Source of the DNA: a virus
Strand: one strand, 5' to 3'
UHGV virus genome: UHGV-0283667
Length of the DNA: 14,283 nt
Positions 1-14,283 of the stretch are shown here, in pieces (the stretch's first letter is position 1; each line of letters begins with the position of its first letter). Under the pieces are notes generated by a model. The model searched no databases and was not told where the DNA came from. It was given only the letters and a program-made list of their open reading frames with translations. A program made the translations under genes and the position numbers.

Positions 1-77
1 CCTGCGCCCACGTTATAGACGAACGAGTAAAGAGCGCCGCGCGTTGTTTCCGGTATATCGACTTTGATGTACGGGTT
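1..77 (-). pseudogene. Phage endolysin (T4-lysozyme-like, GH24) fragment; reading frame runs leftward out of the window and is cut off near position 77
   Basis: Reverse-complement translation of 1-77 gives ...[26 protein letters not shown], matching the conserved core of enterobacterial prophage lysozymes. Similarity stops near 77, where the + strand Rz frame begins. Confidence 0.55.
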
Positions 78-385
78 ATTACCGTGATAACGCAATCGCC
101 TACAAAGAGCAGCGCGATAACAAGGCCAGTGAACTGGAGAAGGCGAACGCTACCATCGCTGACATGCGGAAGCGTCAACGTGATGTAGCAGAACTCGACG
201 CAAGATACACAAAGGAGCTTGCTGATGCTAACGCGACTATCGAAAGTCTCCGTGCTGATGTTTCTGCTGGGCGTAAGCGCCTGCAAGTCGCCGCCACCTG
301 TGCAAAGTCAACGACCGGTCTCACAGAAAAGCCGCCCCGAGATGGTCGCCACCATATACGGCAGTTCTCAGGCTCAACTTTCTGA
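68..385 (+). pseudogene. Rz-like inner-membrane spanin (i-spanin) fragment lacking the N-terminal transmembrane segment and the native C-terminus
   Basis: Frame opens after the TGA at 65-67. Translation [80 protein letters not shown] is lambda Rz-like (about residues 25-103). After position 316 the frame reads a non-Rz tail ([22 protein letters not shown]) to the stop at 383-385. Confidence 0.7.
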
Positions 386-398
386 AAGGCTCGGGTGA
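225..398 (+). CDS. Rz1-like outer-membrane lipoprotein spanin (o-spanin), 57 aa, in the +1 frame of Rz
   Basis: Not in the ORF track (under 60 aa). RBS AGGAG at 213-217, ATG at 225. Translation [57 protein letters not shown] has a lipoprotein signal with lipobox Cys followed by a Pro-rich stretch, as in lambda Rz1. The C-terminal part lies in the inverted segment and may not be native. Confidence 0.5.
257..316. repeat. Left arm of a 60-bp inverted repeat (58/60 identical to the reverse complement of 641-700)
   Basis: Read directly: 257-316 equals the reverse complement of 641-700 except at 266/691 and 307/650. The match does not extend at either end. Confidence 0.9.
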
Positions 399-437
399 TG
401 TAATAGGCGCGTGAGATGCGCTGTGAAATTCAGATGT

Positions 438-464
438 AAAAAAAGCCCCGCATCGCGAGGCTCA
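438..464 (-). terminator. Rho-independent terminator on the minus strand, just downstream of the minus-strand Rz fragment
   Basis: Minus-strand sequence GAGCCTCGC-GAT-GCGGGGC followed by seven U: 7-bp GC-rich stem with one G-U pair. The stem sequence is nearly identical to the + strand terminator at 1201-1226. Confidence 0.6.
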
Positions 465-493
465 TTAAATGGACTTTGTGATTTGCAAAAAAA

Positions 494-775
494 TTATTTC
501 AGGCATTGCGTCCTGATGTATTCCTGCAGGTAGTTAACCTGCGCGGTTATCTTGTCGATTCCACTTCGGAGACGGTAATAATTGAGTTCAGCATCTGCTG
601 TAAGTCCTGGGCTTTCTCCATCGCCCATGCCGCTGGCTCTGGTCGTTGATTTTGCACAGGTGGCGGCGACTTGCAGGCGCTTACGCCCAGAAGAAACATC
701 GTTTGAGGTTAAGCATCTGGCGCGCGGTAAGTGGTTGCGTTGAAATAAGAGCCAGTCCATTACAAATTTCATCAA
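494..775 (-). pseudogene. Rz (i-spanin) C-terminal portion encoded on the minus strand, fused to an unrelated 25-aa N-terminal leader
   Basis: From the arm at 700 downward the translation [66 protein letters not shown] matches the lambda Rz C-terminus, including the ...YI..QC end. The first 25 residues are not Rz-like, and the start is TTG/ATG with no clear RBS. Confidence 0.65.
641..700. repeat. Right arm of the 60-bp inverted repeat
   Basis: Reverse complement of 257-316 with two mismatches. Confidence 0.9.
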
Positions 776-870
776 GCGTTATTGGTAAGGGTGATAATTA
801 TGAGATACCTCTTCACTAAGAGTAATCTTAAGGGTAATGTGTAACCTCACTTTTTAATACGGAGGTTGTA

Positions 871-1095
871 ATGTTAGAGAATTATTTCCCTTCAGGAATA
901 GGTGCTCAGCCTGTAACTCAAGCTCAAAAACAGAGGGTTATAGCTGTTCAAGCTGCCCTTGAATTAGTTAAGGCCTCACTTTCTTCTGCAGGTGGTCAGG
1001 CTACAAGTGCAAAATTTGAACAGGAATTAAAAGCAGCTATTGGCTTAATTGAACCATTAGCCGATGCCATTCAGAAAGCAATCAGCAAAGAATAA
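871..1095 (+). CDS. Hypothetical small protein (74 aa) in an AT-rich moron-like insert between the lysis and packaging modules
   Basis: RBS GGAGG at 861-865, ATG at 871. The 780-1200 region is visibly AT-rich compared with flanking phage genes. Protein is helical-looking and hydrophilic with no signal peptide or TM segment. Followed by the terminator at 1201-1226. Confidence 0.6.
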   Translation: MLENYFPSGIGAQPVTQAQKQRVIAVQAALELVKASLSSAGGQATSAKFEQELKAAIGLIEPLADAIQKAISKE

Positions 1096-1200
1096 ATAAA
1101 CCACCTGCATTTTGTTTTATTTCCCAACTAACGGGTGTAATAATCTTAATGTTTCCCGTGGATAGATAAGACAATAAGTATTCACCTTCAAGATATAAAC

Positions 1201-1226
1201 GAGCCTCGCTAATGCGAGGCTTTTTT
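1201..1226 (+). terminator. Rho-independent terminator
   Basis: GAGCCTCGC-TAAT-GCGAGGC followed by TTTTTT: perfect 7-bp stem, 4-nt loop, T-run. Confidence 0.8.
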
Positions 1227-1261
1227 ACGCATTGTAAGCGTGCACCAAAGAGGGGATATAA

Positions 1262-1612
1262 ATGCCACCACGAACCCCAAAAGCCTGCCGTTTTCGCGGT
1301 TGCCGCAATACCACGACTGATCCGTCAGGCTATTGCGAAAGCCACAAAAGCGAGGGCTGGAAGCAATACAAGCCAGGACAATCCCGTCATCAGCGCGGTT
1401 ATGGTTCGAAGTGGGACAGTATCCGCGCGGGTGTCCTGAAGCGTGACAAAGGCCTGTGTCAGTTATGTCTGCGTGCTGGTGTGGTGCGTGAGGCGAAAAC
1501 CGTTGACCACATCATCCCTAAAGCGCATGGCGGCACTGATGCCGACTGTAATCTGCAGAGTCTGTGCTGGCCGTGTCATAAGGCGAAGACGGCCCGTGAA
1601 CGACTTAAGTGA
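1262..1612 (+). CDS. HNH endonuclease (phage packaging-associated)
   Basis: RBS GAGGGG about 6 nt upstream of ATG 1262. Cys-rich N-terminus and HNH motif ...VDHIIPKAHGG...NLQSLCWPCHKAKT. Position immediately upstream of terminase small subunit is typical of HK97-like phages. Confidence 0.9.
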   Translation: MPPRTPKACRFRGCRNTTTDPSGYCESHKSEGWKQYKPGQSRHQRGYGSKWDSIRAGVLKRDKGLCQLCLRAGVVREAKTVDHIIPKAHGGTDADCNLQSLCWPCHKAKTARERLK

Positions 1613-1638
1613 TAATAATTCTCAACTGTCTGAGGGGA

Positions 1639-1698
1639 GGGGCGGGTCAAATCTCTGTGACCTGACGTCTTCCGGACTGCCCGCCCCATCGTTTTTTT
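1639..1698. other. Candidate cos/packaging-signal region: 8-bp GC inverted repeat around a 32-bp spacer, then a T7 run
   Basis: GGGGCGGG at 1639-1646 and CCCGCCCC at 1680-1687, followed by the T-run at 1692-1698. Lies between the HNH and terminase small subunit genes, where HK97-like phages place cos. The cleavage site cannot be determined from sequence alone. Confidence 0.3.
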
Positions 1699-1737
1699 AT
1701 ACCCGCGAAAAATGAAATTTAACCAGGAGTGCCGCAT

Positions 1738-2232
1738 ATGGCTGGAACGGCGGGGCGTTCCGGGCGTCGCCCCAAGCCAACGGCGCGCAAGGCGCTGGCC
1801 GGAAACCCCGGCAAGCGAGCCCTGAATAAAGATGAACCCGTTTTTACGCCCATCAAAGGTGTTGAGCCACCGGAGTGGTTCGCTGAAGAAGAGCTCCCTC
1901 TCGCCACGATCATGTGGCAACTGACAACCAAAGAACTCTGTGGTCAGGGCCTGCTGTGCGTGACTGACCTCGCAGTGCTTGAGCGGTGGTGCGTAGCCTA
2001 TGAGTTCTGGCGACGTGCTGTGAAAAATATTGCCAGCCAGGGCAACACCATCACCGGTGCAATGGGCGGCATGGTCAAAAATCCGGAGCTGACCGCCAAA
2101 AAAGAACAGGAGTCCGAGATGAGCAGTACGGGGGCAATGCTCGGACTCGACCCCAGCAGCCGCCAGCGTCTGATTGGCCTGGCGGGGCAGAAGAAAGCCA
2201 CTAACCCGTTTCTGAAAATTATCGAATCATGA
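1738..2232 (+). CDS. Terminase small subunit (P27-family-like)
   Basis: RBS AGGAG at 1725-1729, ATG at 1738 (the ORF track begins at an upstream GTG, 1729). About 164 aa with a basic N-terminus. The stop overlaps the terminase large subunit start (ATGA at 2229-2232). Confidence 0.85.
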
Positions 2233-3110
2233 GCCGGAAATCTTACCCCAACGTAAATGCAGCAAATCAGTATGCCCGGGATGTCGTGCGCGGAAAGATT
2301 GTTGCCTGCCAGTTTGTGATTCAGGCCTGCCAGCGCCATCTTGATGACCTGATGGCGGAAAAAAGTAAGTCGTTTCGTTACCGCTTCGACAAGGACCTGG
2401 CTGAACGGGCCGCCAAATTTATTCAGCTGTTGCCGCACACCAAGGGTGAGTGGGCATTTAAACGGATGCCCATCACGCTGGAGCCGTGGCAGCTATTTGT
2501 GATCTGCTGTGCGTTTGGCTGGGTCAATAAAGGCACCCGGTTGCGCCGCTTCCGGGAGGTGTATACCGAAATTCCCCGTAAGAACGGCAAATCGGCAATC
2601 TCTGCCGGTGTTGCCCTGTATTGTTTTGCCTGTGATAACGAGTTCGGCGCGGAAGTGTATTCCGGTGCCACGACGGAGAAACAGGCATGGGAAGTCTTTC
2701 GTCCGGCACGACTGATGTGTAAACGCACACCCATGCTGACGGAAGCGTTCGGGATTGAGGTTAACGCCTCAAACATGAACCGTCCGGAGGATGGTGCGCG
2801 GTTTGAACCGCTGATCGGTAACCCCGGTGATGGTTCATCACCCCACTGTGCCGTGGTGGATGAATATCACGAGCACGCCACAGATGCGCTTTACACCACG
2901 ATGCTTACCGGGATGGGGGCGCGACGCCAGCCACTGACCTCGAACTGCTCAAGAGTCAGTGATTTATCCTCGCAGCTCTGCCAGCTCACCAGGTTGAAAT
3001 ACGCCGAACGCGCCGACACCCAGATATTGAGGTGTTTTGTTTTAAAGACGTTTGCCAGACGGGCGTTATTTTTCGCACGTTGCTGCTGGCTTAACAAAAA
3101 CTCGCGATAA
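2229..3110 (+). CDS. Terminase large subunit, N-terminal ATPase part; family similarity ends near 2938 and the rest of the ORF is out-of-sense read-through
   Basis: Walker A-like IPRKNGKS and Walker B-like AVVDEYHEH, then ...[11 protein letters not shown]. From about 2939 the + frame reads junk ([13 protein letters not shown]...) to the stop at 3108-3110. Confidence 0.8.
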
Positions 3111-3200
3111 ACCGACACACCGATATTCGGGTTAGCTTTTTCAAGTACCTGCGGGTCGGTCCAGTCGTCGCCTTCGTCAACGGTATAGATGATCCTGGCC
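2939..3200 (-). other. Internal terminase large subunit segment in inverted orientation (sense on the minus strand)
   Basis: Minus-strand translation [87 protein letters not shown] carries the terminase signature DDW.DP...KANPN...FKTKHLN.W. It lies exactly between the N- and C-terminal + strand parts, which share one reading frame. Confidence 0.75.
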
Positions 3201-3749
3201 CCGCGTTTCTGGGTACCGTATGACACGGTGTATAGCGTCGAGAAAAATGAAGATCGCCGGACAGCCGAACGCTTTCAGAAATGGGTGGAAATGGGCGTCC
3301 TGACCGTTACCGATGGTGCAGAGGTGGATTATCGCTACATCCTCGAAGAGGCCAAAGCGGCGAACAAAATCAGCCCGGTCAGCGAGTCACCCATCGACCC
3401 CTTCGGGGCGACCGGGTTGTCACATGACCTTGCTGATGAAGACCTGAACCCCGTCACCATCATTCAGAACTACACCAACATGTCCGACCCGATGAAAGAG
3501 CTGGAAGCGGCAATTGAATCGGGGCGCTTTCATCATGATGGCAATCCCATCATGACCTGGTGTATCGGCAACGTGGTCGGAAAAACCATTCCGGGTAACG
3601 ATGATGTGGTGAAACCCGTCAAAGAGCAGGCGGAAAACAAAATCGATGGTGCAGTTGCGCTGATTATGGCGGTTGGCAGAGCCATGCTGTACGAGAAAGA
3701 AGACACGCTGTCTGACCACATTGAGTCCTACGGGATCCGCTCGCTTTAA
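3189..3749 (+). CDS. Terminase large subunit, C-terminal nuclease part (family similarity from about 3201)
   Basis: ...[20 protein letters not shown]...[18 protein letters not shown]...[16 protein letters not shown] is typical of the Terminase_1 C-terminal nuclease domain. Same frame (0) as the N-terminal part. Confidence 0.8.
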
Positions 3750-3829
3750 CTGAGGTAATTATGATCATGCTGATTCTCGCGCCTCTGGTAGGCGTGCTGG
3801 GGGCGCTTTTGCTGGCGTATGGTGTTCAG

Positions 3830-3937
3830 GCTGCCGTTCAGGTGATACAGATTGCAGGGCAACATCCCGACCGACTCTGCCAGCACCCTGACGCAGGAAA
3901 AAACCGCCGTCAGTCGCATGGCCCGCTGGCTGCTGAT
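3830..3937 (-). other. Portal protein N-terminal conserved segment in inverted orientation
   Basis: Minus-strand translation ISSQRAMRLTAVFSCVRVLAESVGMLPCNLYHLNGS matches the N-terminal conserved helix of HK97-family portals, but lies on the strand opposite the portal body. Confidence 0.65.
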
Positions 3938-3953
3938 CTGCTTTCCGGTATAG

Positions 3954-4814
3954 GTGTCATATGACACTGGCTGTGTGGTACCGAAGCTTAACAGTAGCTG
4001 GGAGCCGGTCTATCAGGTCACATTCCCGGACGGCTCCACGGATGTGCTGACCCAGGAGGATATCTGGCATGTGCGCACGCTGACGCTGGACGGTCTGGTG
4101 GGACTGAATCCCATCGCCTATGCCCGCGAGGCAATATCGCTGGCAGCAGCGACTGAAGAGCACGGTGCCAGACTGTTCAGCAATGGCGCGGTGACGTCCG
4201 GTGTGTTGCGTACAGAACAGACGCTGTCGGATCAGGCTTATGAGCGCCTGAAGAAAGATTTTGAGGAGCGTCACACCGGGCTTGGCAATGCTCACCGCCC
4301 GATGATCCTTGAGATGGGGCTGGACTGGAAGTCGATGGCGCTGAACGCCGAGGACAGCCAGTTCCTGGAAACCCGCAAGTTTCAGCTTGAAGAAATCTGT
4401 CGTCTGTTCCGTGTGCCCTTGCACATGGTGCAGAACACCGATCGCGCCACCTTCAACAATATCGAAGAGCTGGGGCTGGGATTTATCAACTATTCACTGG
4501 TGCCGTATCTGACCCGTATTGAGCAGCGGATCAACACCGGACTGGTACGAAAAAGTAAGCAGGGCGTTTATTACGCCAAATTTAACGCCGGGGCGTTACT
4601 GCGCGGGGATATGAAGTCCCGTTTTGAAGCCTACGCCACCGGGATCAACTGGGGAATTTACTCTCCCAATGACTGCCGCGACCTGGAAGATATGAATCCG
4701 CGTCCCGGTGGTGATGTCTATCTCACACCGATGAACATGACCACGAAACCCTCCGATGGTAGTAAAGCCGGTAAGCAGAAGGATAACGCCAATGCAGACG
4801 AAACAACGTCTTGA
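3954..4814 (+). CDS. Portal protein (HK97 family), body and C-terminus; N-terminal region missing from this strand
   Basis: ...EPVYQVTFPDGSTDVL...LVGLNPIAYAREAISLAAATEEHGARLFSNGAVTSGVL...FLETRKFQLEEICRLFRVPLHMVQ...GGDVYLTPMNM is portal-like. The ORF opens at GTG 3954 inside a 14-bp palindrome, with a frame-0 stop at 3951-3953 immediately upstream. Confidence 0.85.
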   Translation: MSYDTGCVVPKLNSSWEPVYQVTFPDGSTDVLTQEDIWHVRTLTLDGLVGLNPIAYAREAISLAAATEEHGARLFSNGAVTSGVLRTEQTLSDQAYERLKKDFEERHTGLGNAHRPMILEMGLDWKSMALNAEDSQFLETRKFQLEEICRLFRVPLHMVQNTDRATFNNIEELGLGFINYSLVPYLTRIEQRINTGLVRKSKQGVYYAKFNAGALLRGDMKSRFEAYATGINWGIYSPNDCRDLEDMNPRPGGDVYLTPMNMTTKPSDGSKAGKQKDNANADETTS

Positions 4815-5442
4815 TGTACCGCTGAGTCTGAAATCTGTCAGTGACTCCGGTGAGTTTGAAGGGTATGGCTCCGTCTTTGGTGTAAAGGACAGCCACGATG
4901 ATGTGGTGATGTCCGGGGCATTTGCTGCTTCCCTGCGGGCGTGGAGTGACAGAAAAACGTTACCTGCGCTGCTCTGGCAGCACCGCATGGATGAACCCAT
5001 CGGTGTTTACACCGAAATGAAGGAAGACGATGTCGGGCTTTACGTCAGGGGACGGTTGCTCATTGATGATGATCCCCTCGCAAAACGCGCACATGCACAC
5101 ATGAAGGCCGGTTCGTTAACCGGCCTTTCTATTGGGTACGTCCTGAAAGACTGGGAATACGACCGGAGCAAAGAAGCCTTTCTGTTGAAAGAAATCGACC
5201 TCTGGGAAGTCAGTCTGGTGACGTTCCCGTCTAACGACGAGGCGCGGATCAGCAACGTCAAGAACGCGCTGGCCCGCGGGGAAATCCCCGAACAGAAAAA
5301 AATCGAAAGAGTCCTGCGTGATGTCGGACTCTCCCGTACCCAGGCCAAAGCATTCATGGCCGGGGGCTATGGCGCACTGTCCCTGCGCGACGCTGAGGAT
5401 GTGGGCTCTGCACTGAATGCACTTAAAAATCTGAACTTCTAA
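4792..5442 (+). CDS. Prohead maturation protease (HK97 family)
   Basis: RBS AAGGA at 4779-4783, ATG at 4792 (track start 4756 has no RBS). Overlaps the portal 3' end. HK97-protease-like sequence. Confidence 0.85.
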   Translation: MQTKQRLDVPLSLKSVSDSGEFEGYGSVFGVKDSHDDVVMSGAFAASLRAWSDRKTLPALLWQHRMDEPIGVYTEMKEDDVGLYVRGRLLIDDDPLAKRAHAHMKAGSLTGLSIGYVLKDWEYDRSKEAFLLKEIDLWEVSLVTFPSNDEARISNVKNALARGEIPEQKKIERVLRDVGLSRTQAKAFMAGGYGALSLRDAEDVGSALNALKNLNF

Positions 5443-5456
5443 TCAGGAGAAATACG

Positions 5457-6662
5457 ATGGCGGTTGATATTAAAGATGTGGAACAGGTCGCGCAGGAGCT
5501 GCAGCAGAAGTTTGACGACTTCAGGGCAAAGAACGACAAGCGCGTGGATGCGATTGAGCAGGAAAAAGGCAAACTTGCCGGGCAGGTGGAAACCCTGAAC
5601 GGGAAACTCAGCGAGCTGGAAAATCTCAAAAGCGACCTTGAAAAAGAGCTGCTTGAGCTGAAACGTCCGGCAGGTGGTGCGCAAAATAAACTGGCCACAG
5701 AGCACAAAGAGGCGTTTGTGGGCTTTCTGCGTAAAGGCCGTGAAGACGGTCTGCGCGATCTGGAGCGCAAGGCATTGCAGGTGGGCACTGATGAAGACGG
5801 TGGCTATGCCGTGCCGGAAGCACTGGATCGCAACATTCTCACCCTGCTGAAAGATGAAGTGGTGATGCGCCAGGAAGCCACGGTGATCACTGTTGGCGGT
5901 TCCGACTACAAAAAACTGGTGAATCTGGGCGGCACGGCTTCCGGATGGGTGGGCGAGACTGACGCGCGCTCCCAGACTGCCACCTCAAAACTGGGACTGA
6001 TTGAACCTTTCATGGGGGAAATCTACGGTAACCCGCAGGCCACTCAGAAAATGCTGGATGATGCCTTCTTCAACGTGGAGGCCTGGATCAACAGCGAGCT
6101 GGCGACCGAATTTGCCGAACAGGAAGAAATTGCCTTTACCACCGGTGATGGCACTAAGAAGCCAAAAGGGTTCCTGGCGTATGAATCCACCGATGAAACC
6201 GATAAGGTTCGTGCGTTCGGTAAACTTCAGCATATTGTATCCGGTGAAGCGACGACGGTGACCGCAGACGCCATTATCAAACTGATTTACACGCTGCGTA
6301 AGGCACACCGCACTGGCGCGAAGTTCATGATGAACAACAACAGCCTGTTTGCCATCCGTCTGCTGAAAGACACCGAGGGTAACTATCTGTGGCGTCCGGG
6401 GCTGGAGCTGGGGCAACCGTCCTCTCTGGCGGGTTACGGTATCGCTGAAAACGAACAGATGCCGGATATCGCCGCTGATGCGAAAGCTATTGCATTTGGT
6501 AACTTCAAACGGGGTTACACCATCGTTGACCGTATCGGTACCCGCATTCTGCGTGATCCGTACACCAATAAACCGTTTGTCGGTTTTTATACCACCAAGC
6601 GCACCGGCGGCATGCTGGTCGATTCGCAGGCCATCAAACTGCTGAAGATTGCAGCGGCGTAG
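5457..6662 (+). CDS. Major capsid protein (HK97 fold) with N-terminal coiled-coil delta/scaffold domain
   Basis: RBS AGGAG at 5443-5447. The first ~100 aa are a charged coiled coil (KLSELENLKSDLEKELLELK), followed by a capsid domain of HK97-like length (401 aa total). Confidence 0.9.
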   Translation: MAVDIKDVEQVAQELQQKFDDFRAKNDKRVDAIEQEKGKLAGQVETLNGKLSELENLKSDLEKELLELKRPAGGAQNKLATEHKEAFVGFLRKGREDGLRDLERKALQVGTDEDGGYAVPEALDRNILTLLKDEVVMRQEATVITVGGSDYKKLVNLGGTASGWVGETDARSQTATSKLGLIEPFMGEIYGNPQATQKMLDDAFFNVEAWINSELATEFAEQEEIAFTTGDGTKKPKGFLAYESTDETDKVRAFGKLQHIVSGEATTVTADAIIKLIYTLRKAHRTGAKFMMNNNSLFAIRLLKDTEGNYLWRPGLELGQPSSLAGYGIAENEQMPDIAADAKAIAFGNFKRGYTIVDRIGTRILRDPYTNKPFVGFYTTKRTGGMLVDSQAIKLLKIAAA

Positions 6663-6670
6663 TCATTCAG

Positions 6671-6688
6671 GGGCGCTGAATTGCGCCC
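6671..6688 (+). terminator. GC-rich stem-loop directly after the major capsid gene; possible partial terminator or mRNA stabiliser
   Basis: GGGCGC-TGAATT-GCGCCC, followed by TTGTTCT (weak U tract). Confidence 0.35.
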
Positions 6689-6711
6689 TTGTTCTGACAG
6701 GTGAAAGAATC

Positions 6712-6900
6712 ATGATCCTGAAACAAGATCTGAAATGGTCACCGGACGGTATGCGCGTTGAGATCATTCGTGCTGGTGAGTATGAAGATAAAGAATTACC
6801 CGAACGGGTACGTGAAATTGCCACTGCAGCAGGGATTGTTTCTGATAAGAGAACACCTGTTGCACGGGTATCTGATAAGGCTAAAAAACAGCATTCATAG
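6712..6900 (+). CDS. Hypothetical small protein (62 aa) between capsid and connector genes
   Basis: ATG at 6712 in frame with track ORF 6649..6900. Hydrophilic, no recognisable family. Lower GC than neighbours. Confidence 0.45.
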   Translation: MILKQDLKWSPDGMRVEIIRAGEYEDKELPERVREIATAAGIVSDKRTPVARVSDKAKKQHS

Positions 6901-6911
6901 AGGTAGCCCAA

Positions 6912-7217: not shown

Positions 7218-7226
7218 GAGGATTTC

Positions 7227-7565
7227 ATGCAGGCAGGAAGATTACGTGATCGCGTGGTTATTCTGAATATTACGACCTCCCGTACCCCTTCCGGTCACCC
7301 GGAGGAAACCCTGAAAGAGGGGGCTACGGTATGGGCAGAGGTTAAGGGGATCAGTGGGCGGGAACGTATATCGGGCGGTGCGGAAACCGCGCAGACAACA
7401 GTAAGAGTCTGGATGCGATTTCGGCGCGATGTGACGGCCGCCTCACGTCTGAAAGTGCTGACCGGGGCATTCAAGGGAGCCATTCTGAATATCGACGGGC
7501 CGCCGATCCCGGACGCACGATCCTCCAGGCTTGAAATACTTTGCAGCCAGAGAGGTGGAATGTGA
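7227..7565 (+). CDS. Head closure / head-tail adaptor protein
   Basis: RBS AGGAGG 7 nt upstream of ATG 7227. N-terminal MQAGRLRDRVVI motif typical of the head-tail joining family. 112 aa. Confidence 0.7.
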   Translation: MQAGRLRDRVVILNITTSRTPSGHPEETLKEGATVWAEVKGISGRERISGGAETAQTTVRVWMRFRRDVTAASRLKVLTGAFKGAILNIDGPPIPDARSSRLEILCSQRGGM

Positions 7566-8011
7566 CGGATTTTAGTCTGGATTTTTCTGGCCTGGCGGAT
7601 ATTGCAAGAGATCTGGAACTTCTCAGCAGAGCAGAGAGTAATAAGGTGCTTCGCGATGCCTCCCGTGCCGGTGCAGAGGTTATCCGGGAGGCGGTTATTG
7701 ATCATGCGCCAGAGCGAACCGGAAAACTGAAGAAAAACGTGGTTATTCTGACTCAGCGTTCACGGCGTCGTGGTGAAATTATCTCTGGTGTCCACATTCG
7801 TGGGCGGAATCTGCGAACCGGAAACAGTGATAACAGCATGAAAGCCAGCGATCCGCGAAACGCGTTTTACTGGCGTTTCGTGGAGCTGGGGACTATCAAT
7901 ATGCCTGCCCATCCGTTCATTCGCCCGGCCTTTGATACGACAGAGGAGCTGGCAGCACAGGTTGCCATGAAGCATATGAATCAGGCTATTGATGGGGTGC
8001 TGAGTAAATGA
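7562..8011 (+). CDS. Tail component, HK97 gp10-like family
   Basis: Likely GTG start at 7562 after RBS AGAGGTGG (track start is TTG 7541). Motifs ...IDHAPERTGKL... and ...FYWRFVELGT...PAHPFIRPAFD resemble the gp10 family. Confidence 0.65.
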   Translation: MTDFSLDFSGLADIARDLELLSRAESNKVLRDASRAGAEVIREAVIDHAPERTGKLKKNVVILTQRSRRRGEIISGVHIRGRNLRTGNSDNSMKASDPRNAFYWRFVELGTINMPAHPFIRPAFDTTEELAAQVAMKHMNQAIDGVLSK

Positions 8012-8352
8012 GAGAAGCCACGCTGTATGCTCTTCTGTCCCAACTGGCCGGAGGGCAGGTTTATCCTTATGTGGTCCCGCTGACGGAGGGAAAGCCTGCG
8101 GTATCTCCACCATGGCTGGTGTTTTCAGTGGTGTCTGACATCGCGTCTGATGTGCTTGATGGTCAGGCTGAATCCAGAATTACCGTGCAGATTGATATCT
8201 GGGCAACGGCTCCTGATGACGCAGATGATATCCGTGAGCAGGCGCTTGATGCGGTAAGGGAACTGGCACCATCCGTTATTTCTAAAACTCAGGGTTATGA
8301 TCCTGATTCCCGTCTGAGCAGAGCTACGCTTGAATTTCAGGTAATAGCCTGA
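8008..8352 (+). CDS. Tail completion protein (DUF3168-like)
   Basis: ATGA start/stop overlap with the upstream gene. N-terminal ...LYALL...VYPYVVP... pattern. 114 aa. Confidence 0.55.
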   Translation: MREATLYALLSQLAGGQVYPYVVPLTEGKPAVSPPWLVFSVVSDIASDVLDGQAESRITVQIDIWATAPDDADDIREQALDAVRELAPSVISKTQGYDPDSRLSRATLEFQVIA

Positions 8353-8373
8353 GGTCGTTAATGATTTTACCCA

Positions 8374-8394
8374 CCCGCCGCTGGCGGGTTTTTT
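8374..8394 (+). terminator. Intrinsic terminator-like hairpin immediately upstream of the major tail protein gene
   Basis: CCCGCC-GCT-GGCGGG followed by TTTTTT. Confidence 0.6.
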
Positions 8395-8411
8395 ATTTTC
8401 AGGAGACGAGT

Positions 8412-9116
8412 ATGTCCTCTAATTTTGAACGTTCTCAGCAGACCAAAGTCATGATCTCGTCTGCACCGGTAACGGCAGAAACGCTGAGTTCTGCCAGTTT
8501 TCTTGAACTGAGCTGTACGATTAAAGAGGTTCAGTTTACCGCCGGGCAGAAACAGGATATTGATGTCACTACGCTGTGTTCTACCGAGCAGGAGAATATC
8601 AACGGTCTTGGGGCTGCTTCAGAGATTTCCATGTCAGGAAACTTTTATCTCAACTCTGCCCAGAACGCGTTGCGTAGTGCTTATGACAACGACACCACAT
8701 ACGGTTTCAAAGTTATTTTCCCGTCAGGAAATGGATTTACTTTTATGGCAGAAGTTCGCCAGCATACCTGGTCTGTGGGAACCAACGGTGTTGTTGCTGC
8801 CACATTTTCCCTGCGCCTGAAAGGAAAGCCCTCTCTGACCACTGAACCTTTGAAACTCCTCTCTGATTTGAAAAGTACACTACAGGTTTCTGCCAGTGAA
8901 ACGCTGAATATGTCTGTTGAGGCATCAGGTGGTGTGCCTCCTTATTCATATGTCTGGAAGAAAGGCAGCTCTCCAGTTTCCGGGCAGACATCGGCAACTT
9001 TCAACAAGGCCTCCGTGACATCCGGAGATGCCGGTGCGTATACCTGTGAGGTTTCTGATTCAGCAAGCCCGATTAATAAGGTGACCTCCACTTCCTGCAC
9101 CGTAACTGTCAGTTAA
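8412..9116 (+). CDS. Major tail protein with C-terminal Ig-like domain
   Basis: RBS AGGAG 6 nt upstream of ATG 8412 (track start 8361 lies inside the terminator). The C-terminal ~85 aa look like a Big_2/Ig-like domain. Confidence 0.8.
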   Translation: MSSNFERSQQTKVMISSAPVTAETLSSASFLELSCTIKEVQFTAGQKQDIDVTTLCSTEQENINGLGAASEISMSGNFYLNSAQNALRSAYDNDTTYGFKVIFPSGNGFTFMAEVRQHTWSVGTNGVVAATFSLRLKGKPSLTTEPLKLLSDLKSTLQVSASETLNMSVEASGGVPPYSYVWKKGSSPVSGQTSATFNKASVTSGDAGAYTCEVSDSASPINKVTSTSCTVTVS

Positions 9117-9130
9117 GGAGGATGAAATCT

Positions 9131-9502
9131 ATGTCTAAAAATATCCGCAATCTGGCACTGGCGACGATGTCTGGTTTTCGCCACAAAACAGTTGATGTTC
9201 CTGAGTGGGAAGGTACAACGGTTGTATTACGGGAACCCTCTGCAGAAGCCTGGTTACGTTGGCAGGAGATCGTTAAAACCGGAGATGATGATACACCGTT
9301 ATCAGTTGCGGAGCGTGCCCGCCGAAATCTGGAAGCGGATGTTGAACTGTTCATCGATGTTCTGTGTGATACCGGGATGCAACCCGTGTTTTCAGCGGAT
9401 GATCGGGAGCAGGTACTTGCAGTATATGGTCCGGTACATGCGCGACTGCTTCGTCAGTCACTGGAACTGATCACTGATGCTGAAGTTATTAAAAAAAAGT
9501 AG
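9131..9502 (+). CDS. Tail assembly chaperone (gpG-like)
   Basis: RBS AAGGAGG at 9115-9121, ATG at 9131. Acidic ~124-aa protein directly upstream of the tape measure gene, ending in a slippery A-run. Confidence 0.75.
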   Translation: MSKNIRNLALATMSGFRHKTVDVPEWEGTTVVLREPSAEAWLRWQEIVKTGDDDTPLSVAERARRNLEADVELFIDVLCDTGMQPVFSADDREQVLAVYGPVHARLLRQSLELITDAEVIKKK

Positions 9503-9804
9503 CACTTCCGGGTATTCGTTTTCTGATGATGCTGGCGCTCAGGATGGGGCGCACATTGTCAGAGTTACGCCGGGAAATGTCTGCATCGGAAATCATGATG
9601 TGGGCAGAATTTGACAGGATCAGCCCGCTGGGTGACGAGCGGGCTGATATCCGGGCTGCCCAGATAGTTTCTGCAGTTTACGGGGCGCAGGGTGTCAAAG
9701 TTCCACTGAATGAAGCGATTCTTCAGTGGGAGGTCGTTCCTGCAAATAATATTAAAGATCCGTTCACAGCGTTTGAAAATGCATTATTTGCAGCGACACA
9801 ATGA
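9131..9804 (+). CDS. Tail assembly chaperone frameshift fusion product (gpGT-like) by -1 ribosomal frameshift at 9493-9499
   Basis: The -1 frame is open from 9493 through the stop at 9802-9804. The slippery run sits just before the G stop at 9500-9502. Confidence 0.65.
9491..9499 (+). promoter_or_regulatory. Programmed -1 frameshift slippery site (A AAA AAG)
   Basis: Heptamer A-AAA-AAG at 9493-9499 within the run AAAAAAAAG (9491-9499). Confidence 0.65.
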
Positions 9805-9814
9805 TCTTCTTACT

Positions 9815-9844
9815 TTACTGGATTATGATTCCGATTTTTATTAA
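9815..9844 (+). promoter_or_regulatory. Candidate sigma-70 promoter for the downstream moron
   Basis: TTACTG (9815-9820), 18-bp spacer, TATTAA (9839-9844), in an AT-rich intergenic stretch. Confidence 0.3.
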
Positions 9845-9862
9845 GTAAATAAGGAGATATTG

Positions 9863-10204
9863 ATGGAAGTTATTCTTATTGCGCTAGTCCTGGGGTTAAT
9901 TCCGGCTATTATCGCGCAAAGTAAAGGGCGTTCATTTTGGGGATGGTGGATATACGGAGCCTTACTCTTTATCGTTGCCTTGGTTCATTCACTTGTAATC
10001 CAAAAAGATGAAAAAACGCATGAGCAACAAATGGTGAGCAATGGCATGAAAAAATGCCCTTACTGTGCGGAGTTGATCAAAGAAGAAGCCATTAAGTGTA
10101 AGCATTGCGGTAGTGATTTAACACATAACCCTGATAGTACCGTTTCGCAAAAAACGGATGATGAATATCTTGAAGAAGCAAGGCGTAAGGCTGGGCTTCT
10201 TTAA
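9863..10204 (+). CDS. Moron: small membrane protein with two predicted TM helices and a C-terminal zinc-ribbon (CPYC...CKHC)
   Basis: RBS AAGGAG at 9851-9856, ATG at 9863. Two hydrophobic stretches, then CPYC-x13-CKHC. AT-rich codon usage unlike flanking tail genes. Own terminator downstream. Confidence 0.7.
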   Translation: MEVILIALVLGLIPAIIAQSKGRSFWGWWIYGALLFIVALVHSLVIQKDEKTHEQQMVSNGMKKCPYCAELIKEEAIKCKHCGSDLTHNPDSTVSQKTDDEYLEEARRKAGLL

Positions 10205-10209
10205 AAGCA

Positions 10210-10234
10210 AAAACCGCTTCGGCGGTTTTTTTTT
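10210..10234 (+). terminator. Rho-independent terminator (A-tract upstream, so possibly bidirectional)
   Basis: AAAACCGC-TTCG-GCGGTTTT followed by a T9 run. Confidence 0.75.
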
Positions 10235-10249
10235 GCCTGGAGAACGAGA

Positions 10250-13200
10250 ATGGCGTCACTACGCGAACTGATTATAAAAATCTCGGCAAATTCGCAGTCA
10301 TTCCAGTCAGAAATTGCGCGAGCTTCACGTATGGGACAGGAGTACTACCGTACCATGCAGAACGGAGGTCGACAGTCTGCAGCTGCATCCCGTGATATGC
10401 GGCGAGCACTGGCAGAAGTGACCGAGCAGATAAATACGGCGAAGTCTTCGGCAATGAATATGGCTGGCGCATTTGCCGGTGCTTTTGCCACTGGACATCT
10501 TATATCTCTTGCGGATGAATGGAGCTCAGTAAATGCCCGTTTGAAGCAGGCCACGCAGTCCAGCGATGATTTCCAGGCATCACAGCGCGAATTAATGGCG
10601 ATCAGCCAGAGAACGGGTACTGCTTTTGCTGATAACGCCAGTCTTTTTGCACGTTCGGCTTCTTCCATGCGGGAATATGGTTACAGGTCTGAGGAAGTAC
10701 TGAAAGTTACCGAGGCCATTTCTACAGGATTGAAATTGTCCGGAGCCAGTTCTGCGGAAGCCAGCTCGGTGATCACTCAGTTCAGCCAGGCACTGGCGCA
10801 AGGGGTTCTGCGCGGTGAAGAGTTTAATTCAGTAAATGAAAGCGGTGATCGTGTTATTCGTGCTCTGGCTGCAGGAATGGGGGTTGCCCGTAAAGATCTG
10901 AAGGCAATGGCGGATGATGGAAAGCTGACCGCCGATAAGGTTGTTCCTGCACTGATTAGCCAGCTTGGTACGCTGCGGGATGAATATGCAGCCATGCCTG
11001 ATACCGTATCATCCTCTGCAACCAAAGTTGAAAACGCCTTTATGGCCTGGGTTGGTGGTGCGAATGATGCCAGCGGTGCAACGAAAACGCTTACCGGAAT
11101 AATGAATGGTGTTGCGAATAATATTGATACGGTTGCCACGGCGGCGGGAGCTCTGGTTGCAATTGGTGTAGCCCGATATTTTGGCAATATGGCGTCTTCT
11201 GCGGGCTCTGCAACTGCCGGGTTAATCACTGTTGCCAGAAACGAAGTGGCTCTTGCTGAGGCACAGCTCAGAGGGACACAGATAGCAACAGCCAGAGCGC
11301 GGGCGGCATTGTATCGTGCGCAGCAGGCGGTTGTGGCTGCCCGTGGTACAGAAAAACAGGCTGCAGCAGAAGCGAAACTGGCAACCGCACAGGCTTCACT
11401 TACCCGTAATATTGCTGCCAGAACAGCGGCACAGGCAACGCTGAATAACGTTACGTCAGTTAGTAGTCGGTTGTTAAGCGGTGCTCTGGGGCTGGTTGGT
11501 GGTGTGCCTGGACTTGTCATGCTGGGGGCGGCGGCCTGGTACACAATGTATCAGAACCAGGAGCAGGCCAGAGAATCAGCGCGTCAGTATGCCGCAACAA
11601 TCGACGAAATTCGCCAGAAAACGTCTGCAATGTCACTTCCTGAAGCGGCAGATAATGAAGAAAAGACGCGGCAGGCTCTGGAGGAGCAGAACAGGTTAAT
11701 TGACGAGCAGAAAAGTAAGATTAAATCCTTACAGGAAAAAATTGCTGGCTATCAGTATGTCCTGGCAAACCCGGGCTGGACAACCGATAACGGTTTTATG
11801 ATTAACCACATGACGTCGGTGAAAACTGTCACAGAAGGGCTTGCAGAAGCAACAAGTCAGCTGGCTGTTGAGCAGTCCCGACTTTCCGGAATGCAGGAAA
11901 AAGCCCAGTCAATCCAGGATGTGCTTGCCGGGCTGGAAGAACGACGAGTGGTGCTGATCCGCCAACAGGCAGCGGAACAAAACAAAGCATATCAGTCATT
12001 ACTGATCATGAATGGCCAACATACCGAGTTTAATCGTCTTCTTGGGCTTGGTAATGAATTACTTCAGCAGCGACAGGGGCTGGTGAATGTACCGTTACGG
12101 CTGCCACAGGCTGCTCTGGATGATAAACAGCAGAACGCGCTGAATAACACTGAGCGAGAGCTGACCTTATCCCGTATGAAGGGGGAAGCGCGTGAGCGTA
12201 CTCGTCTGGGCTATGTAGCGGATGATCTCGGTTTTGTGGGGGATGCCTATCAGACGGCAAGGCAAACTTATATCAACAACGCGCTGGAAGCATGGCGTAA
12301 CAACCAGGCGAATAAGCCAAAGGTACGTGGTGGAAAATCGGAAGCAGAAAAAACGGAAGATGCTTATAACAGACTGATTAAACAACAAAAAGAACAAATA
12401 GCACTGGCAGGACAGAATACTGAACTGGCTAAGATGAAATACCAGGTCAGCCAGGGCGAATTATCAACCTTATCAGAAGCGCAGAAACAAACCCTTTTAC
12501 AGAATGCAGCACTCATCGACCAGAAAAAAATTCGTGAGCAAATTGCTGCTTATGAAAGCAGCCTGGCGGACAGTAACGCCAGTGTCAGGGCATCAAATGA
12601 GGCTCAGTTGTTAGGGTATGGAGACGGAACACGAATACGTGAGCGGCTTCAGGAAATGTGGAACATCCGACAGGAGTTTGAGCAGAAAAATAATGAGTTG
12701 CTGAGACAGTACCAGACCGGAGAAATCGAAGAAGCCCTGTGGAAACAGGAAAAAACGCTGAATGAAAAATATCTGGAGGAGCGTCTCAACGATCAGCAGG
12801 ATTATTATGCAAAGGCCGATGCTTTACGCAGTAACTGGAATGCTGGGCTCAAAGAGGGGCTGACGAACTGGGCAGACAGTGCCACTGATTATGCTTCACA
12901 AGCGGCAGATGCGGTCGTTTCCACTATGGATGGTCTGGTTTCAAATATTTCCGAGGCACTGGCCGGAAACGTTGTGGACTGGAGAAACTGGGGGAGTTCG
13001 ATCCTTCAGGAAGTTTCAAAAATCCTGATGAACGCGGCCATTGTTAACGGGCTGAAATCACTCTCCGGGACAATGTCGGGAGCGGGGGGATGGATTGGTA
13101 GTGTTGGCGACTGGCTTTCCGGTGCAGTAGCGAACGCAAAAGGCGGTGTTTACACATCGGCAAATCTGAGTGCTTACAGTAACACCATTGTGGATACGCC

Positions 13201-13492
13201 GACGTACTTTGCTTTTGCGAAAGGTGCCGGGCTGATGGGGGAAGCCGGACCTGAAGCTATCATGCCGCTTACGCGGGCGGCGGACGGTTCTCTTGGGGTC
13301 AGGGCTATTGGCAATGTGAATGGTGGTGGCGGATTTGTCTATTCTCCCGTGTATCACATCAATATTCAGAATAAAGGGAGCAATGGCGAGATTGATACGC
13401 AGTCAGCCAGGGGGCTGGTGGATCTGATCGACAGCAGGGTTGTGTCAATTATGCAGTCATCACGTCGGGACGGAGGATTATGCAGTGCCTGA
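10250..13492 (+). CDS. Tail tape measure protein (1080 aa)
   Basis: RBS GGAGA 6 nt upstream of ATG 10250. Long Ala/Gln-rich helical protein immediately after the G/GT chaperone genes. Confidence 0.92.
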   Translation: MASLRELIIKISANSQSFQSEIARASRMGQEYYRTMQNGGRQSAAASRDMRRALAEVTEQINTAKSSAMNMAGAFAGAFATGHLISLADEWSSVNARLKQATQSSDDFQASQRELMAISQRTGTAFADNASLFARSASSMREYGYRSEEVLKVTEAISTGLKLSGASSAEASSVITQFSQALAQGVLRGEEFNSVNESGDRVIRALAAGMGVARKDLKAMADDGKLTADKVVPALISQLGTLRDEYAAMPDTVSSSATKVENAFMAWVGGANDASGATKTLTGIMNGVANNIDTVATAAGALVAIGVARYFGNMASSAGSATAGLITVARNEVALAEAQLRGTQIATARARAALYRAQQAVVAARGTEKQAAAEAKLATAQASLTRNIAARTAAQATLNNVTSVSSRLLSGALGLVGGVPGLVMLGAAAWYTMYQNQEQARESARQYAATIDEIRQKTSAMSLPEAADNEEKTRQALEEQNRLIDEQKSKIKSLQEKIAGYQYVLANPGWTTDNGFMINHMTSVKTVTEGLAEATSQLAVEQSRLSGMQEKAQSIQDVLAGLEERRVVLIRQQAAEQNKAYQSLLIMNGQHTEFNRLLGLGNELLQQRQGLVNVPLRLPQAALDDKQQNALNNTERELTLSRMKGEARERTRLGYVADDLGFVGDAYQTARQTYINNALEAWRNNQANKPKVRGGKSEAEKTEDAYNRLIKQQKEQIALAGQNTELAKMKYQVSQGELSTLSEAQKQTLLQNAALIDQKKIREQIAAYESSLADSNASVRASNEAQLLGYGDGTRIRERLQEMWNIRQEFEQKNNELLRQYQTGEIEEALWKQEKTLNEKYLEERLNDQQDYYAKADALRSNWNAGLKEGLTNWADSATDYASQAADAVVSTMDGLVSNISEALAGNVVDWRNWGSSILQEVSKILMNAAIVNGLKSLSGTMSGAGGWIGSVGDWLSGAVANAKGGVYTSANLSAYSNTIVDTPTYFAFAKGAGLMGEAGPEAIMPLTRAADGSLGVRAIGNVNGGGGFVYSPVYHINIQNKGSNGEIDTQSARGLVDLIDSRVVSIMQSSRRDGGLCSA

Positions 13493-13826
13493 ACCTGAAG
13501 CTTTTAACTGGATCCCCCGCGAGGGGATGGAGACGACACGAAAGCCATCTGTTATTACGGTAAAGTTCGGTGACGGATATGAACAGCGACGGGCTGGTGG
13601 TCTGAATGCGGATCTGAAAACGTTTAAACCGGTATTTCGGGTCACAGATGAATATTCCCGCGCTGCGCTGGACAGTTTTTTATCCCGTCATGCCGGGATG
13701 CGTGCTTTTTTGTGGCGTCCGCCAAAATACAACAGGACCGTCCGGGTTGTCTGCAGGGAGTGGAGTATTTCGGATAATGCCATGTATACCGATTTTAACT
13801 GTACCTTTGAAGAGGTCACTCACTGA
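13485..13826 (+). CDS. Minor tail protein M (lambda gpM-like)
   Basis: Likely GTG start at 13485 after RBS GGAGGA, overlapping the tape measure 3' end (track start is TTG 13440). ...VKFGDGYEQRRAGGLNADLKTFKPVF...FLWRPP... matches lambda M. Confidence 0.85.
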   Translation: MPEPEAFNWIPREGMETTRKPSVITVKFGDGYEQRRAGGLNADLKTFKPVFRVTDEYSRAALDSFLSRHAGMRAFLWRPPKYNRTVRVVCREWSISDNAMYTDFNCTFEEVTH

Positions 13827-14218
13827 TGCAGGATATACAGCAGGAAACACTGAATGAGTGTACAAAATCGGAGCAATCCGCGCTGGTCGTGCTCTGGGAA
13901 GTCGATCTGACAGAGGTCGGCGGAGAGCGTTATTTTTTCTGTAATGAGCAGAACGAAAAAGGTGAGTCGGTCACCTGGCAGGGGCGACAGTATCAGGCGT
14001 ACCCTATTCAGGGAAGCGGCTTTGAGATGAACGGCAAAGGAGCCAGTGCAAGACCAACGCTGAAAGTCTCTAACCTGCACGGCATGGTCACCGGGATGGC
14101 GGAAGACCTGCAGAGTCTGGTCGGCGGAAAGGTAGTCAGGCGTAAGGTTTGCCAAAGTTGCCGACGTTATTGCGAAACTTACAGCCACTCAGGCATTTGC
14201 TGCATTTATCCTTCGTGA
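13826..14218 (+). CDS. Minor tail protein L (lambda gpL-like), N-terminal 108 aa; family similarity ends at 14149
   Basis: MQDIQQETLNECTKSEQSALVVLWEVDLTEVGGERYFFCNEQNEKGE.VTWQGRQYQ.YPIQGSGFE.NGKG...VVRRKV is nearly identical in pattern to lambda L. From 14150 the frame reads non-L sequence. Start overlaps the M stop. Confidence 0.85.
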   Translation: MQDIQQETLNECTKSEQSALVVLWEVDLTEVGGERYFFCNEQNEKGESVTWQGRQYQAYPIQGSGFEMNGKGASARPTLKVSNLHGMVTGMAEDLQSLVGGKVVRRKVCQSCRRYCETYSHSGICCIYPS

Positions 14219-14283
14219 TATCGGACGTCGGCTGGTCATATTCATCCGCGACAGCCGGACCGCTATAACCGCACTCATCACCG
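14150..14283 (-). other. Minor tail protein L C-terminal region in inverted orientation; continues beyond the window end
   Basis: Minus-strand translation GDECGYSGPAVADEYDQPTSDITKDKCSKCLSGCKFRNNVGNFG matches the Cys-rich C-terminal region of lambda L. Confidence 0.75.

What the first reader, a model, noticed from the sequence alone, without database searches (positions are those of the whole stretch)
1..14283. Recurrent short in-frame inversions across the whole late operon
Five breakpoints share one signature: conserved protein sequence switches strand for about 0.1-0.35 kb and then resumes, with reading frames compatible with in-place inversion. They are at about 77, 317-640, 2939-3200, about 3762-3967, and 14150 to beyond the window end. 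Ordinary prophage decay gives deletions, IS insertions and point nonsense mutations, not repeated small inversions of essential packaging and tail genes. Only the Rz event has flanking inverted repeats. Candidate explanations are an assembly or chimeric-read artefact, deliberate sequence scrambling, or a recombination process acting at short microhomologies. As read, this element cannot produce virions (TerL, portal and L all broken).
Basis: partly seen in the sequence, partly recalled or inferred. Interest (0 to 1): 0.85.

Follow-up and report, generated by a model that had tools for sequence, protein, structure and literature searches.

The report
Mis-assembled prophage contig, not real inversions
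The short strand-flipped blocks in this E. coli prophage late operon are real in the sequence, but their geometry is that of paired-end mates joined in the wrong orientation, so they are almost certainly an assembly artefact.

Summary
The window is an HK97-like E. coli prophage late operon (lysis genes to tail gene L). The strand switches exist, at w1-78, 319-700, 2938-3195, 3825-3966 and 14151-14283.

They are not in-place inversions. Every internal inverted block lacks 104-208 bp on each measurable side compared with relatives that are otherwise 99.99-100% identical.

All 8 junctions join two like-facing ends that lie 304-366 bp apart in the intact prophage (mean 333, SD 23). The second segment always lies ahead in the direction the ends face. 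There is no microhomology, inserted base or flanking inverted repeat. This is the geometry of read 1 joined directly to un-reverse-complemented read 2 of an ordinary paired-end fragment.

Other evidence points the same way:
- The left 552 bases come from a different, DLP12-like prophage, entered through an 87-bp exact repeat, as de Bruijn graphs do.
- The only private base change in 10 kb lies 21 nt before a junction.
- No junction occurs in about 1,390 E. coli genomes carrying this TerL, in 20 intact relatives fetched from public assemblies, or in three contig collections.
- A toy simulation of concatenated mates reproduces inverted islands flanked by missing sequence. Split mates do not.

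Verdict: not a real feature; low interest.

The parts
1..78 (-). Inverted block 0. It is an antisense fragment of the lysozyme gene rrrD of a DLP12-like lysis cassette, cut by the window start.
   Evidence: 100% identical to L002 3298-3375 on the strand opposite to rrrD. It is joined at w78 to a point 310 bp away in L002.
78..318 (+). Direct segment: the 5' part of the Rz-type lysis gene, DLP12-like type.
   Evidence: 99.6% identical to L002 3065-2825, the sense strand of the 'lysis protein' gene. It is only 85% identical to the L001/L013-type Rz.
319..700 (-). Inverted block A, a mosaic. w319-552 is the DLP12-like Rz 3' end plus downstream sequence. w640-700 carries the three diagnostic bases of the L013-type Rz. 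The crossover lies within the 87-bp stretch w553-639 that is identical in both prophage types.
   Evidence: Mismatches to DLP12-type relatives lie at w406, 640, 650 and 691. Mismatches to the L013 type lie at w521, 542 and 552, and nothing aligns left of w501. The shared exact run is w553-639. The joined ends are 320-324 bp apart at w318 and 304 bp apart at w700.
701..2937 (+). Direct segment: the 74-aa ORF (w871-1095), HNH endonuclease (w1262-1612), small terminase (w1738-2232) and TerL codons 1-236 (w2229-2937).
   Evidence: 100% identical to L001 3407-5643; annotation.
2938..3195 (-). Inverted block B (258 bp): TerL codons about 273-358 on the wrong strand. L001 5644-5751 (108 bp) and 6010-6114 (105 bp) are absent on its two sides.
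   Evidence: 100% identical to L001 6009-5752 on the minus strand. The joined ends are 366 and 363 bp apart. No microhomology.
3196..3824 (+). Direct segment: TerL codons 394-577 (to w3749) and the first 64 nt of ymfR (w3761-3824).
   Evidence: 100% identical to L001 6115-6743.
3825..3966 (-). Inverted block C (142 bp): portal codons about 27-74 on the wrong strand. L001 6744-6940 (197 bp) and 7083-7255 (173 bp) are absent on its two sides.
   Evidence: 100% identical to L001 7082-6941 on the minus strand. The joined ends are 339 and 315 bp apart.
3967..14150 (+). Direct segment, 10,184 bp: portal codons 132-413, prohead protease, major capsid, connector and tail-completion genes, major tail protein, tail chaperones, zinc-ribbon ORF, tape measure, M, and L codons 1-108.
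   Evidence: 99.97% identical to L001 7256-17439. There is 1 mismatch to L003 (GCA_964055825.1), at w14130.
14130..14130 (.). Private base: A in the window, C in the nine relatives that could be aligned here. It lies 21 nt before junction w14150.
   Evidence: It fits an error near the 3' end of the read that carries the junction.
14151..14283 (-). Inverted block D (133 bp, cut by the window end): tail protein L codons about 178-222 on the wrong strand. L001 17440-17647 (208 bp) is absent before it.
   Evidence: 100% identical to L001 17780-17648 on the minus strand. The joined ends are 341 bp apart.

Best explanation
The window is a mis-assembled short-read contig. I infer that the two mates of ordinary inward-facing (FR) paired-end fragments were presented to the assembler as one sequence: read 1 followed directly by raw read 2, not reverse-complemented and with no spacer. 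An equivalent mate-orientation error would give the same result. One known route, from my own knowledge of the SRA toolkit, is dumping spots without splitting them; another is a run deposited as 'single' reads of length 2L.

Each such pseudo-read creates a junction. It runs from the 3' end of read 1 to the 5' end of read 2, which lies (insert minus read length) further on, on the other strand. Where the true path is well covered, these weak links are pruned. Where it is thin or broken, they are the only links left. A small island of reads is then stitched to both flanks through two mate junctions and enters the contig upside down, with the uncovered stretches on each side missing.

The same graph also slid from the HK97-like prophage into a second, DLP12-like prophage through an 87-bp exact repeat in Rz.

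Shown: the geometry, the privacy of the junctions and the two-prophage chimera. Inferred: the read-level cause, a read length near 150 nt, an insert near 480 bp, and uneven coverage.
For: 1. All 8 junctions join like-facing ends that lie 310, 320-324, 304, 366, 363, 339, 315 and 341 bp apart in collinear relatives (mean 333, SD 23). In all 8, by my own tracing of the coordinates, the second segment lies ahead in the direction the ends face, as FR mates require. Block length plus flanking loss is near-constant although block length varies from 142 to 382 bp.

2. There are no inserted bases. There is no microhomology at 6 junctions measured against L001. There are no inverted repeats at the breakpoints in the intact reference.

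3. Away from the junctions the sequence is 100% identical to relatives. The single private substitution in 10,184 bp (w14130) lies 21 nt before a junction.

4. The two sides of every junction come from the same prophage type. The type switch happens inside an 87-bp exact repeat within an inverted block.

5. The junctions are private to this window. No record spans a junction 120-mer among about 1,390 E. coli genomes carrying this TerL or about 1,336 carrying this portal. One junction 40-mer is absent from IMG/VR and another from JGI metagenomes and the GTDB genomes. Four junction-dependent ORFs are not on record. Twenty relatives are collinear and intact.

6. A toy de Bruijn simulation of concatenated mates gives jumps of 300-355 bp. 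With thin-coverage zones it gives inverted islands of 159 and 261 bp flanked by missing sequence. The split-mate control gives none.
Against: - I could not find the source contig or its reads, so no read-level proof exists.
- By my own Poisson estimate, uniform coverage does not produce six missing stretches of 104-208 bp next to a clean 10-kb stretch. Uneven coverage or graph complexity in modules shared with other prophages has to be assumed. The GC content of the missing stretches is not extreme.
- The simulation uses my own minimal assembler, and only 2 of 24 runs with thin zones gave full islands.
- An SD of 23 bp is tight for an insert-size distribution, though only 8 values were measured.
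Confidence: 0.8

Rival explanations
1. Another technical artefact. One form is physical chimeric molecules made during library preparation, such as inverted chimeras from multiple displacement amplification or strand-split/fold-back ligation artefacts. Another is a scaffolder or gap-closer that placed small contigs in the wrong orientation and closed the gaps without Ns.
For: The general picture is the same: junctions private to this contig, near-perfect identity elsewhere, and inverted pieces with intervening loss. Small contigs of 142-382 bp are easy to mis-orient.
Against: From my own knowledge of the literature, amplification and fold-back chimeras usually show a few bases of microhomology and a broad range of jump distances. 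Here there is none at six junctions and the distance is constant at 333 +/- 23 bp. Mis-oriented scaffolding does not predict that block length plus gap is constant. It would normally leave Ns, and the window has none.
Confidence: 0.13
2. The sequence was edited on purpose, as synthetic scrambling or a planted decoy, by inverting short blocks of a real prophage sequence.
For: The junctions occur nowhere else, and the joins are clean and blunt with no microhomology.
Against: An in-place inversion would conserve every base, but 104-208 bp is missing beside every internal block. Un-flipping w319-700 gives an imperfect 62-bp direct duplication and a join between two prophage types. The constant spacing of joined ends despite variable block sizes, and a private base 21 nt from a junction, are read-pair properties that an editor would have no reason to imitate.
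Confidence: 0.03
3. Real in vivo rearrangements of the prophage: repeated small inversions with flanking deletions, produced by template switching (fork stalling or microhomology-mediated break-induced replication), a site-specific invertase, or aberrant break repair.
For: The blocks are undeniably in the sequence. The three TerL lengths (108, 258, 105 bp) are all multiples of three, so a flipped TerL would stay in frame.
Against: - No microhomology at six junctions and no inverted-repeat crossover sites in the intact reference.
- Invertases are conservative, but sequence is lost here.
- The portal and L lengths are not multiples of three.
- At least five complex events would have to accumulate in a lineage that differs from relatives by one base in 10 kb.
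- 0 of about 1,390 carrier genomes share any junction.
- No known cellular process measures out 333 +/- 23 bp.
- The left end of the contig belongs to a different prophage.
Confidence: 0.02

Closest known systems
Chimeric contigs from un-split, concatenated paired-end spots (read 1 + raw read 2 treated as one read)
   Same: Junctions are like-end joins, head-to-head or tail-to-tail. The spacing of joined ends equals insert minus read length. There are no inserted bases and no microhomology. The junctions are private to the assembly, and the effects are strongest where true coverage is thin. These points are reproduced qualitatively in my simulation.
   Different: The read set is not available, so membership is inferred from geometry only. 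The clustering of the missing stretches needs uneven coverage, which I could not verify.
HK97-like / lambdoid E. coli prophage late operon (HNH, TerS P27 family, TerL, portal, S78 protease, HK97 capsid, lambda-like tail H-M-L)
   Same: Gene order and 99.97-100% nucleotide identity to intact prophages in E. coli 1517k and GCA_964055825.1.
   Different: TerL, ymfR, portal, L and Rz appear broken in the window. This is a property of the contig, not of the prophage lineage.
Site-specific invertible DNA segments (Hin/Gin/Cin G and C segments, shufflons)
   Same: Short DNA blocks are found in inverted orientation inside phage late regions.
   Different: Those systems have inverted-repeat crossover sites and conserve every base. 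They have a nearby recombinase and switch between functional gene variants. Here there are no repeats at the breakpoints, sequence is lost, essential genes are cut mid-domain, and no recombinase gene lies in the window.
Inverted chimeras of multiple displacement amplification and fold-back or strand-split library artefacts
   Same: Inverted orientation with an intervening skip over a short distance, and purely technical in origin.
   Different: From my own knowledge, those junctions typically carry microhomology and variable jump sizes. Here there is none at six junctions and the jump is constant.

Membership tests
Concatenated-mate (paired-end orientation) assembly chimera | Every junction joins two like-facing ends, with the second segment lying ahead in the facing direction (FR geometry). 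| tested here: met
   8 of 8 junctions, traced by me from the coordinates.
Concatenated-mate (paired-end orientation) assembly chimera | The distance between joined ends follows a narrow distribution like that of insert size minus read length. | tested here: met
   304-366 bp, mean 333, SD 23, while block lengths range from 142 to 382 bp.
Concatenated-mate (paired-end orientation) assembly chimera | Blunt joins: no microhomology, linker, adapter or N at junctions. | tested here: met
   Six junctions have 0 shared bases. Blocks abut exactly. The window contains only A, C, G and T.
Concatenated-mate (paired-end orientation) assembly chimera | Junctions are absent from independent assemblies of the same element. 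| tested here: met
Concatenated-mate (paired-end orientation) assembly chimera | In the raw data, the junction sits exactly at the read-1/read-2 boundary of the spots. | not testable with these tools
   The source run and contig were not found.
Site-specific invertible segment (serine or tyrosine invertase systems) | Inverted-repeat crossover sites at both ends of the segment. | tested here: not met
   No inverted repeats at the breakpoints in L001. The only pair in the window, w257-316 / w641-700, consists of two paralogous Rz copies.
Site-specific invertible segment (serine or tyrosine invertase systems) | Conservative exchange with no gain or loss of bases. | tested here: not met
   104-208 bp is missing beside each internal block.
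Template-switch or microhomology-mediated rearrangement | Microhomology of a few bases at junctions. | tested here: not met
   0 bases at six junctions; a 1-base ambiguity at w78.
HK97-like prophage late operon | The gene set HNH, TerS, TerL, portal, S78 protease and HK97-fold capsid, followed by lambda-like tail genes. | tested here: met
   RefSeq annotation of the 99.97-100% identical locus. Pfam families of the called genes in relatives.

The most novel reading that the evidence does not exclude
The junctions are real DNA. On this reading, a process in the source cell or phage population repeatedly excised and re-inserted short segments upside down with a fixed reach of about 330 bp and blunt joins, for example a break-and-rejoin activity with a physical ruler acting on packaging and tail genes. 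Nothing in the sequence strictly excludes this, because no reads are available.
Probability: 0.02. Interest if true: 0.8.

Novelty: not a real feature. Interest (0 to 1): 0.07.

Why it matters
It matters as quality control rather than biology. The contig would wrongly be scored as a defective prophage with broken terminase, portal and tail genes. Its chimeric ORFs would enter protein databases as novel fusion proteins.

The signature can be turned into a simple filter for this class of mis-assembly in public contig collections. It consists of short inverted blocks flanked by losses, like-end joins at a constant distance, and no microhomology.

If the junctions were real, which is very unlikely, a ruler-like inversion process would be new biology.

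Tried and rejected
1. Finding the source contig. One exact junction 40-mer was scanned in IMG/VR and another in JGI metagenomes and the GTDB genomes. Exact look-ups were run on four junction-dependent ORFs. All were empty, so coverage, assembler and read layout could not be read off.

2. Repeat-induced de Bruijn misjoin as the cause of the inversions. Rejected, because that needs shared k-mers (inverted repeats) at the breakpoints and there are none. It does explain the switch between prophage types within w553-639.

3. GC-driven coverage dropout as the reason for the missing stretches. Their GC is 0.39-0.60 against a local 5-95% range of 0.41-0.60, so there is no clear signal.

4. The Logan pipeline as the culprit. 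Its methods split spots with fasterq-dump and discard k-mers seen only once. That does not by itself produce this pattern unless the run was deposited with the mates fused. This remains undecided.

5. A literature search for a description of this artefact returned nothing directly relevant. The statement about un-split SRA spots rests on my own knowledge.

6. First simulations with raw unitigs only shattered the graph. A branch-pruning step was needed.

7. Codon-phase regularity of the breakpoints. This holds for TerL only, not for portal or L, so I treat it as chance.
Full report
**What the window is.** The 14,283-base window is the lysis-to-tail part of an HK97-like or lambdoid E. coli prophage. 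Its closest complete-genome relative is E. coli 1517k (NZ_CP054388.1, fetched as L001). There the region is annotated in this order: Rz-type lysis gene, HNH endonuclease, P27-family small terminase, large terminase (TerL), ymfR, portal, HK97 prohead protease, major capsid, connector and tail-completion genes, an Ig-domain major tail protein, tail chaperones, a zinc-ribbon ORF, tape measure, M and L.

**Checking the observation.** A sensitive blastn of the window against L001, and of w1-900 against a DLP12-like lysis cassette (L002), resolves the window into nine segments that abut exactly.

| Window | Orientation | Match |
|---|---|---|
| w1-78 | inverted | L002 3298-3375 |
| w78-318 | direct | L002 3065-2825 |
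| w319-700 | inverted | L002 2505-2886; w501-700 also matches L001 3302-3103 |
| w701-2937 | direct | L001 3407-5643, 100% |
| w2938-3195 | inverted | L001 6009-5752, 100% |
| w3196-3824 | direct | L001 6115-6743, 100% |
| w3825-3966 | inverted | L001 7082-6941, 100% |
| w3967-14150 | direct | L001 7256-17439, 99.97% |
| w14151-14283 | inverted | L001 17780-17648, 100% |

They are not in-place inversions. Sequence present in every relative is missing beside each internal block:
- 108 and 105 bp around the TerL block
- 197 and 173 bp around the portal block
- 208 bp before the L block
- 104 bp after the Rz block

Flipping the blocks back gives only a 506-aa open TerL frame, against 577 aa in relatives. 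It restores neither portal nor L.

**The decisive regularity.** For each of the 8 junctions I measured how far apart the two joined ends lie in the collinear reference. The values are 310, 324 (320 if the chance 4-base extension is discounted), 304, 366, 363, 339, 315 and 341 bp, with mean 333 and SD 23. Block lengths vary from 142 to 382 bp and flanking losses from 104 to 208 bp, yet block plus loss is nearly constant.

Every junction joins two like-facing ends, right to right or left to left. In all eight, tracing the coordinates, the second segment lies ahead in the direction those ends face. None of the six junctions measured against L001 has a single base of microhomology, and there are no inserted bases. 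The intact reference has no inverted repeats at the breakpoints.

This is the geometry obtained when read 1 of an inward-facing paired-end fragment is followed directly by raw read 2. The 3' end of read 1 is joined to the 5' end of read 2, which lies (insert minus read length) further on, on the opposite strand. A random rearrangement process, or an editor inverting blocks, has no reason to hold that distance constant. Eight values falling within a 63-bp span of a plausible 0-1 kb range has a probability of order 1e-7 (my own estimate).

**Further signs of a read-graph origin.**
- From w701 onward the window is 100% identical to the L013/L003-type prophage. In contrast, w1-552 belongs to a different prophage type, a DLP12-like essD-rrrD-Rz cassette.
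- Within inverted block w319-700, the diagnostic bases at w640, 650 and 691 are of the L013 type. Those at w521, 542 and 552, and everything left of w501, are DLP12-like.
- The switch lies within an 87-bp stretch (w553-639) that is identical in both types. This is how a de Bruijn graph slides between paralogous prophages.
- The two sides of each mate junction always belong to the same prophage type, as a single fragment must.
Un-flipping the block would give an imperfect 62-bp direct duplication, so neither an in vivo nor a planted in-place inversion fits.
- Across 10,184 bp the window differs from L003 (GCA_964055825.1) at one base, w14130. It is A in the window and C in all nine relatives that could be aligned there. 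It lies 21 nt before junction w14150, where the low-quality 3' end of the junction-bearing read would be.

**The junctions are private to this window.**
- The identical tape measure protein occurs in 244 blocks of the public collection. The ten loci fetched are mutually collinear, with TerL of 577 aa (one called at 498 aa from a later start; one locus begins inside TerL), portal of 413 aa and L of 232 aa.
- Ten more loci fetched through the 74-aa ORF all have TerL of 577 aa and the normal Rz-to-HNH arrangement.
- Junction-spanning 120-mers match about 1,390 (TerL) and about 1,336 (portal) complete E. coli genomes only as two separate halves that stop essentially at the junction. No record spans either junction.
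- One junction 40-mer is absent from IMG/VR and another from JGI metagenomes and the GTDB genomes.
- Four junction-dependent ORFs are not on record.

**Mechanism (inferred).** Concatenated mates add one weak chimeric link per fragment to the assembly graph. Where the true path is well covered, these links are pruned. Where it is broken, they are the only continuation. A small island of reads between two uncovered stretches is then tied to both flanks by two mate junctions and enters upside down, and the uncovered stretches drop out.

For TerL the picture is as follows. One read 1 ends at L001 5643 and its mate starts at 6009 and reads down. A second pair has its read 2 starting at 5752 and reading up, and its minus-strand read 1 ending at 6115.

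A toy simulation on L001 supports this. It used 150-nt reads, insert 483 +/- 23, k = 31, branch pruning and tip clipping.
- Contigs ran through mate junctions with jumps of 300-355 bp.
- With thin-coverage zones, some runs gave inverted islands of 159 and 261 bp flanked by missing sequence. The observed internal blocks in TerL and portal are 142 and 258 bp.
- The same pipeline with split mates gave none.

**Weak points.**
- I have no reads.
- Full islands arose in only 2 of 24 thin-zone simulations.
- By my own Poisson estimate, uniform coverage cannot give six losses of 104-208 bp beside a clean 10-kb stretch, so uneven coverage must be assumed. The GC content of the missing stretches does not explain it.
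- The Logan pipeline as described splits spots and drops singleton k-mers. The origin of the contig stays open.

**Rivals.**
- *Library-level chimeras or mis-oriented scaffolding* (about 0.13) share the artefact verdict. They do not predict the constant distance or the blunt joins.
- *Deliberate in-place scrambling* (about 0.03) is contradicted by the flanking losses, the Rz block and the read-pair geometry.
- *Real rearrangement* (about 0.02) is contradicted by the absence of microhomology and of crossover sites, by the loss of sequence, by near-zero divergence from intact relatives, by the absence of the junctions from all other carriers, and by the lack of any cellular ruler of 333 bp.

**Verdict.** The conclusion that the prophage is defective should be dropped. 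Interest is low, except as a recognisable signature for filtering such contigs.

Noticed in passing
window 1-552: The left end of the contig comes from a second prophage type, a DLP12-like essD-rrrD-Rz lysis cassette followed in relatives by a GIY-YIG nuclease gene. It is not from the HK97-like prophage that supplies w553-14283. The source sample therefore carries both elements.
   Followed up: yes
window 553-639: An 87-bp stretch of the Rz gene is identical between the two prophage types. It is long enough to collapse in short-read graphs and to support natural recombination between lysis cassettes.
   Followed up: partly
window 9860-10204: A 113-114-aa zinc-ribbon ORF (PF13248 in relatives) sits between tail assembly protein T and the tape measure gene, a position where lambda-like tails normally have no gene. 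It is conserved in all relatives fetched.
   Followed up: no
window 8361-9116: The Ig-domain major tail protein is called with two different starts in public records: 251 aa from w8361 and 234 aa from w8412.
   Followed up: no
window 10250-13492: The exact 1080-aa tape measure protein is listed in 244 blocks of the public collection. The places shown include NCBI genome assemblies and ENA metagenome scaffolds, so this prophage lineage is common and highly clonal, with 1-4 differences per 10 kb among most of the relatives fetched.
   Followed up: partly
window 2878-2937: This 60-bp stretch of TerL is 100% identical to a 'terminase large subunit' locus in E. coli K-12 MG1655 and C600, so the head-module sequence is shared with a K-12 cryptic prophage.
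   Followed up: no
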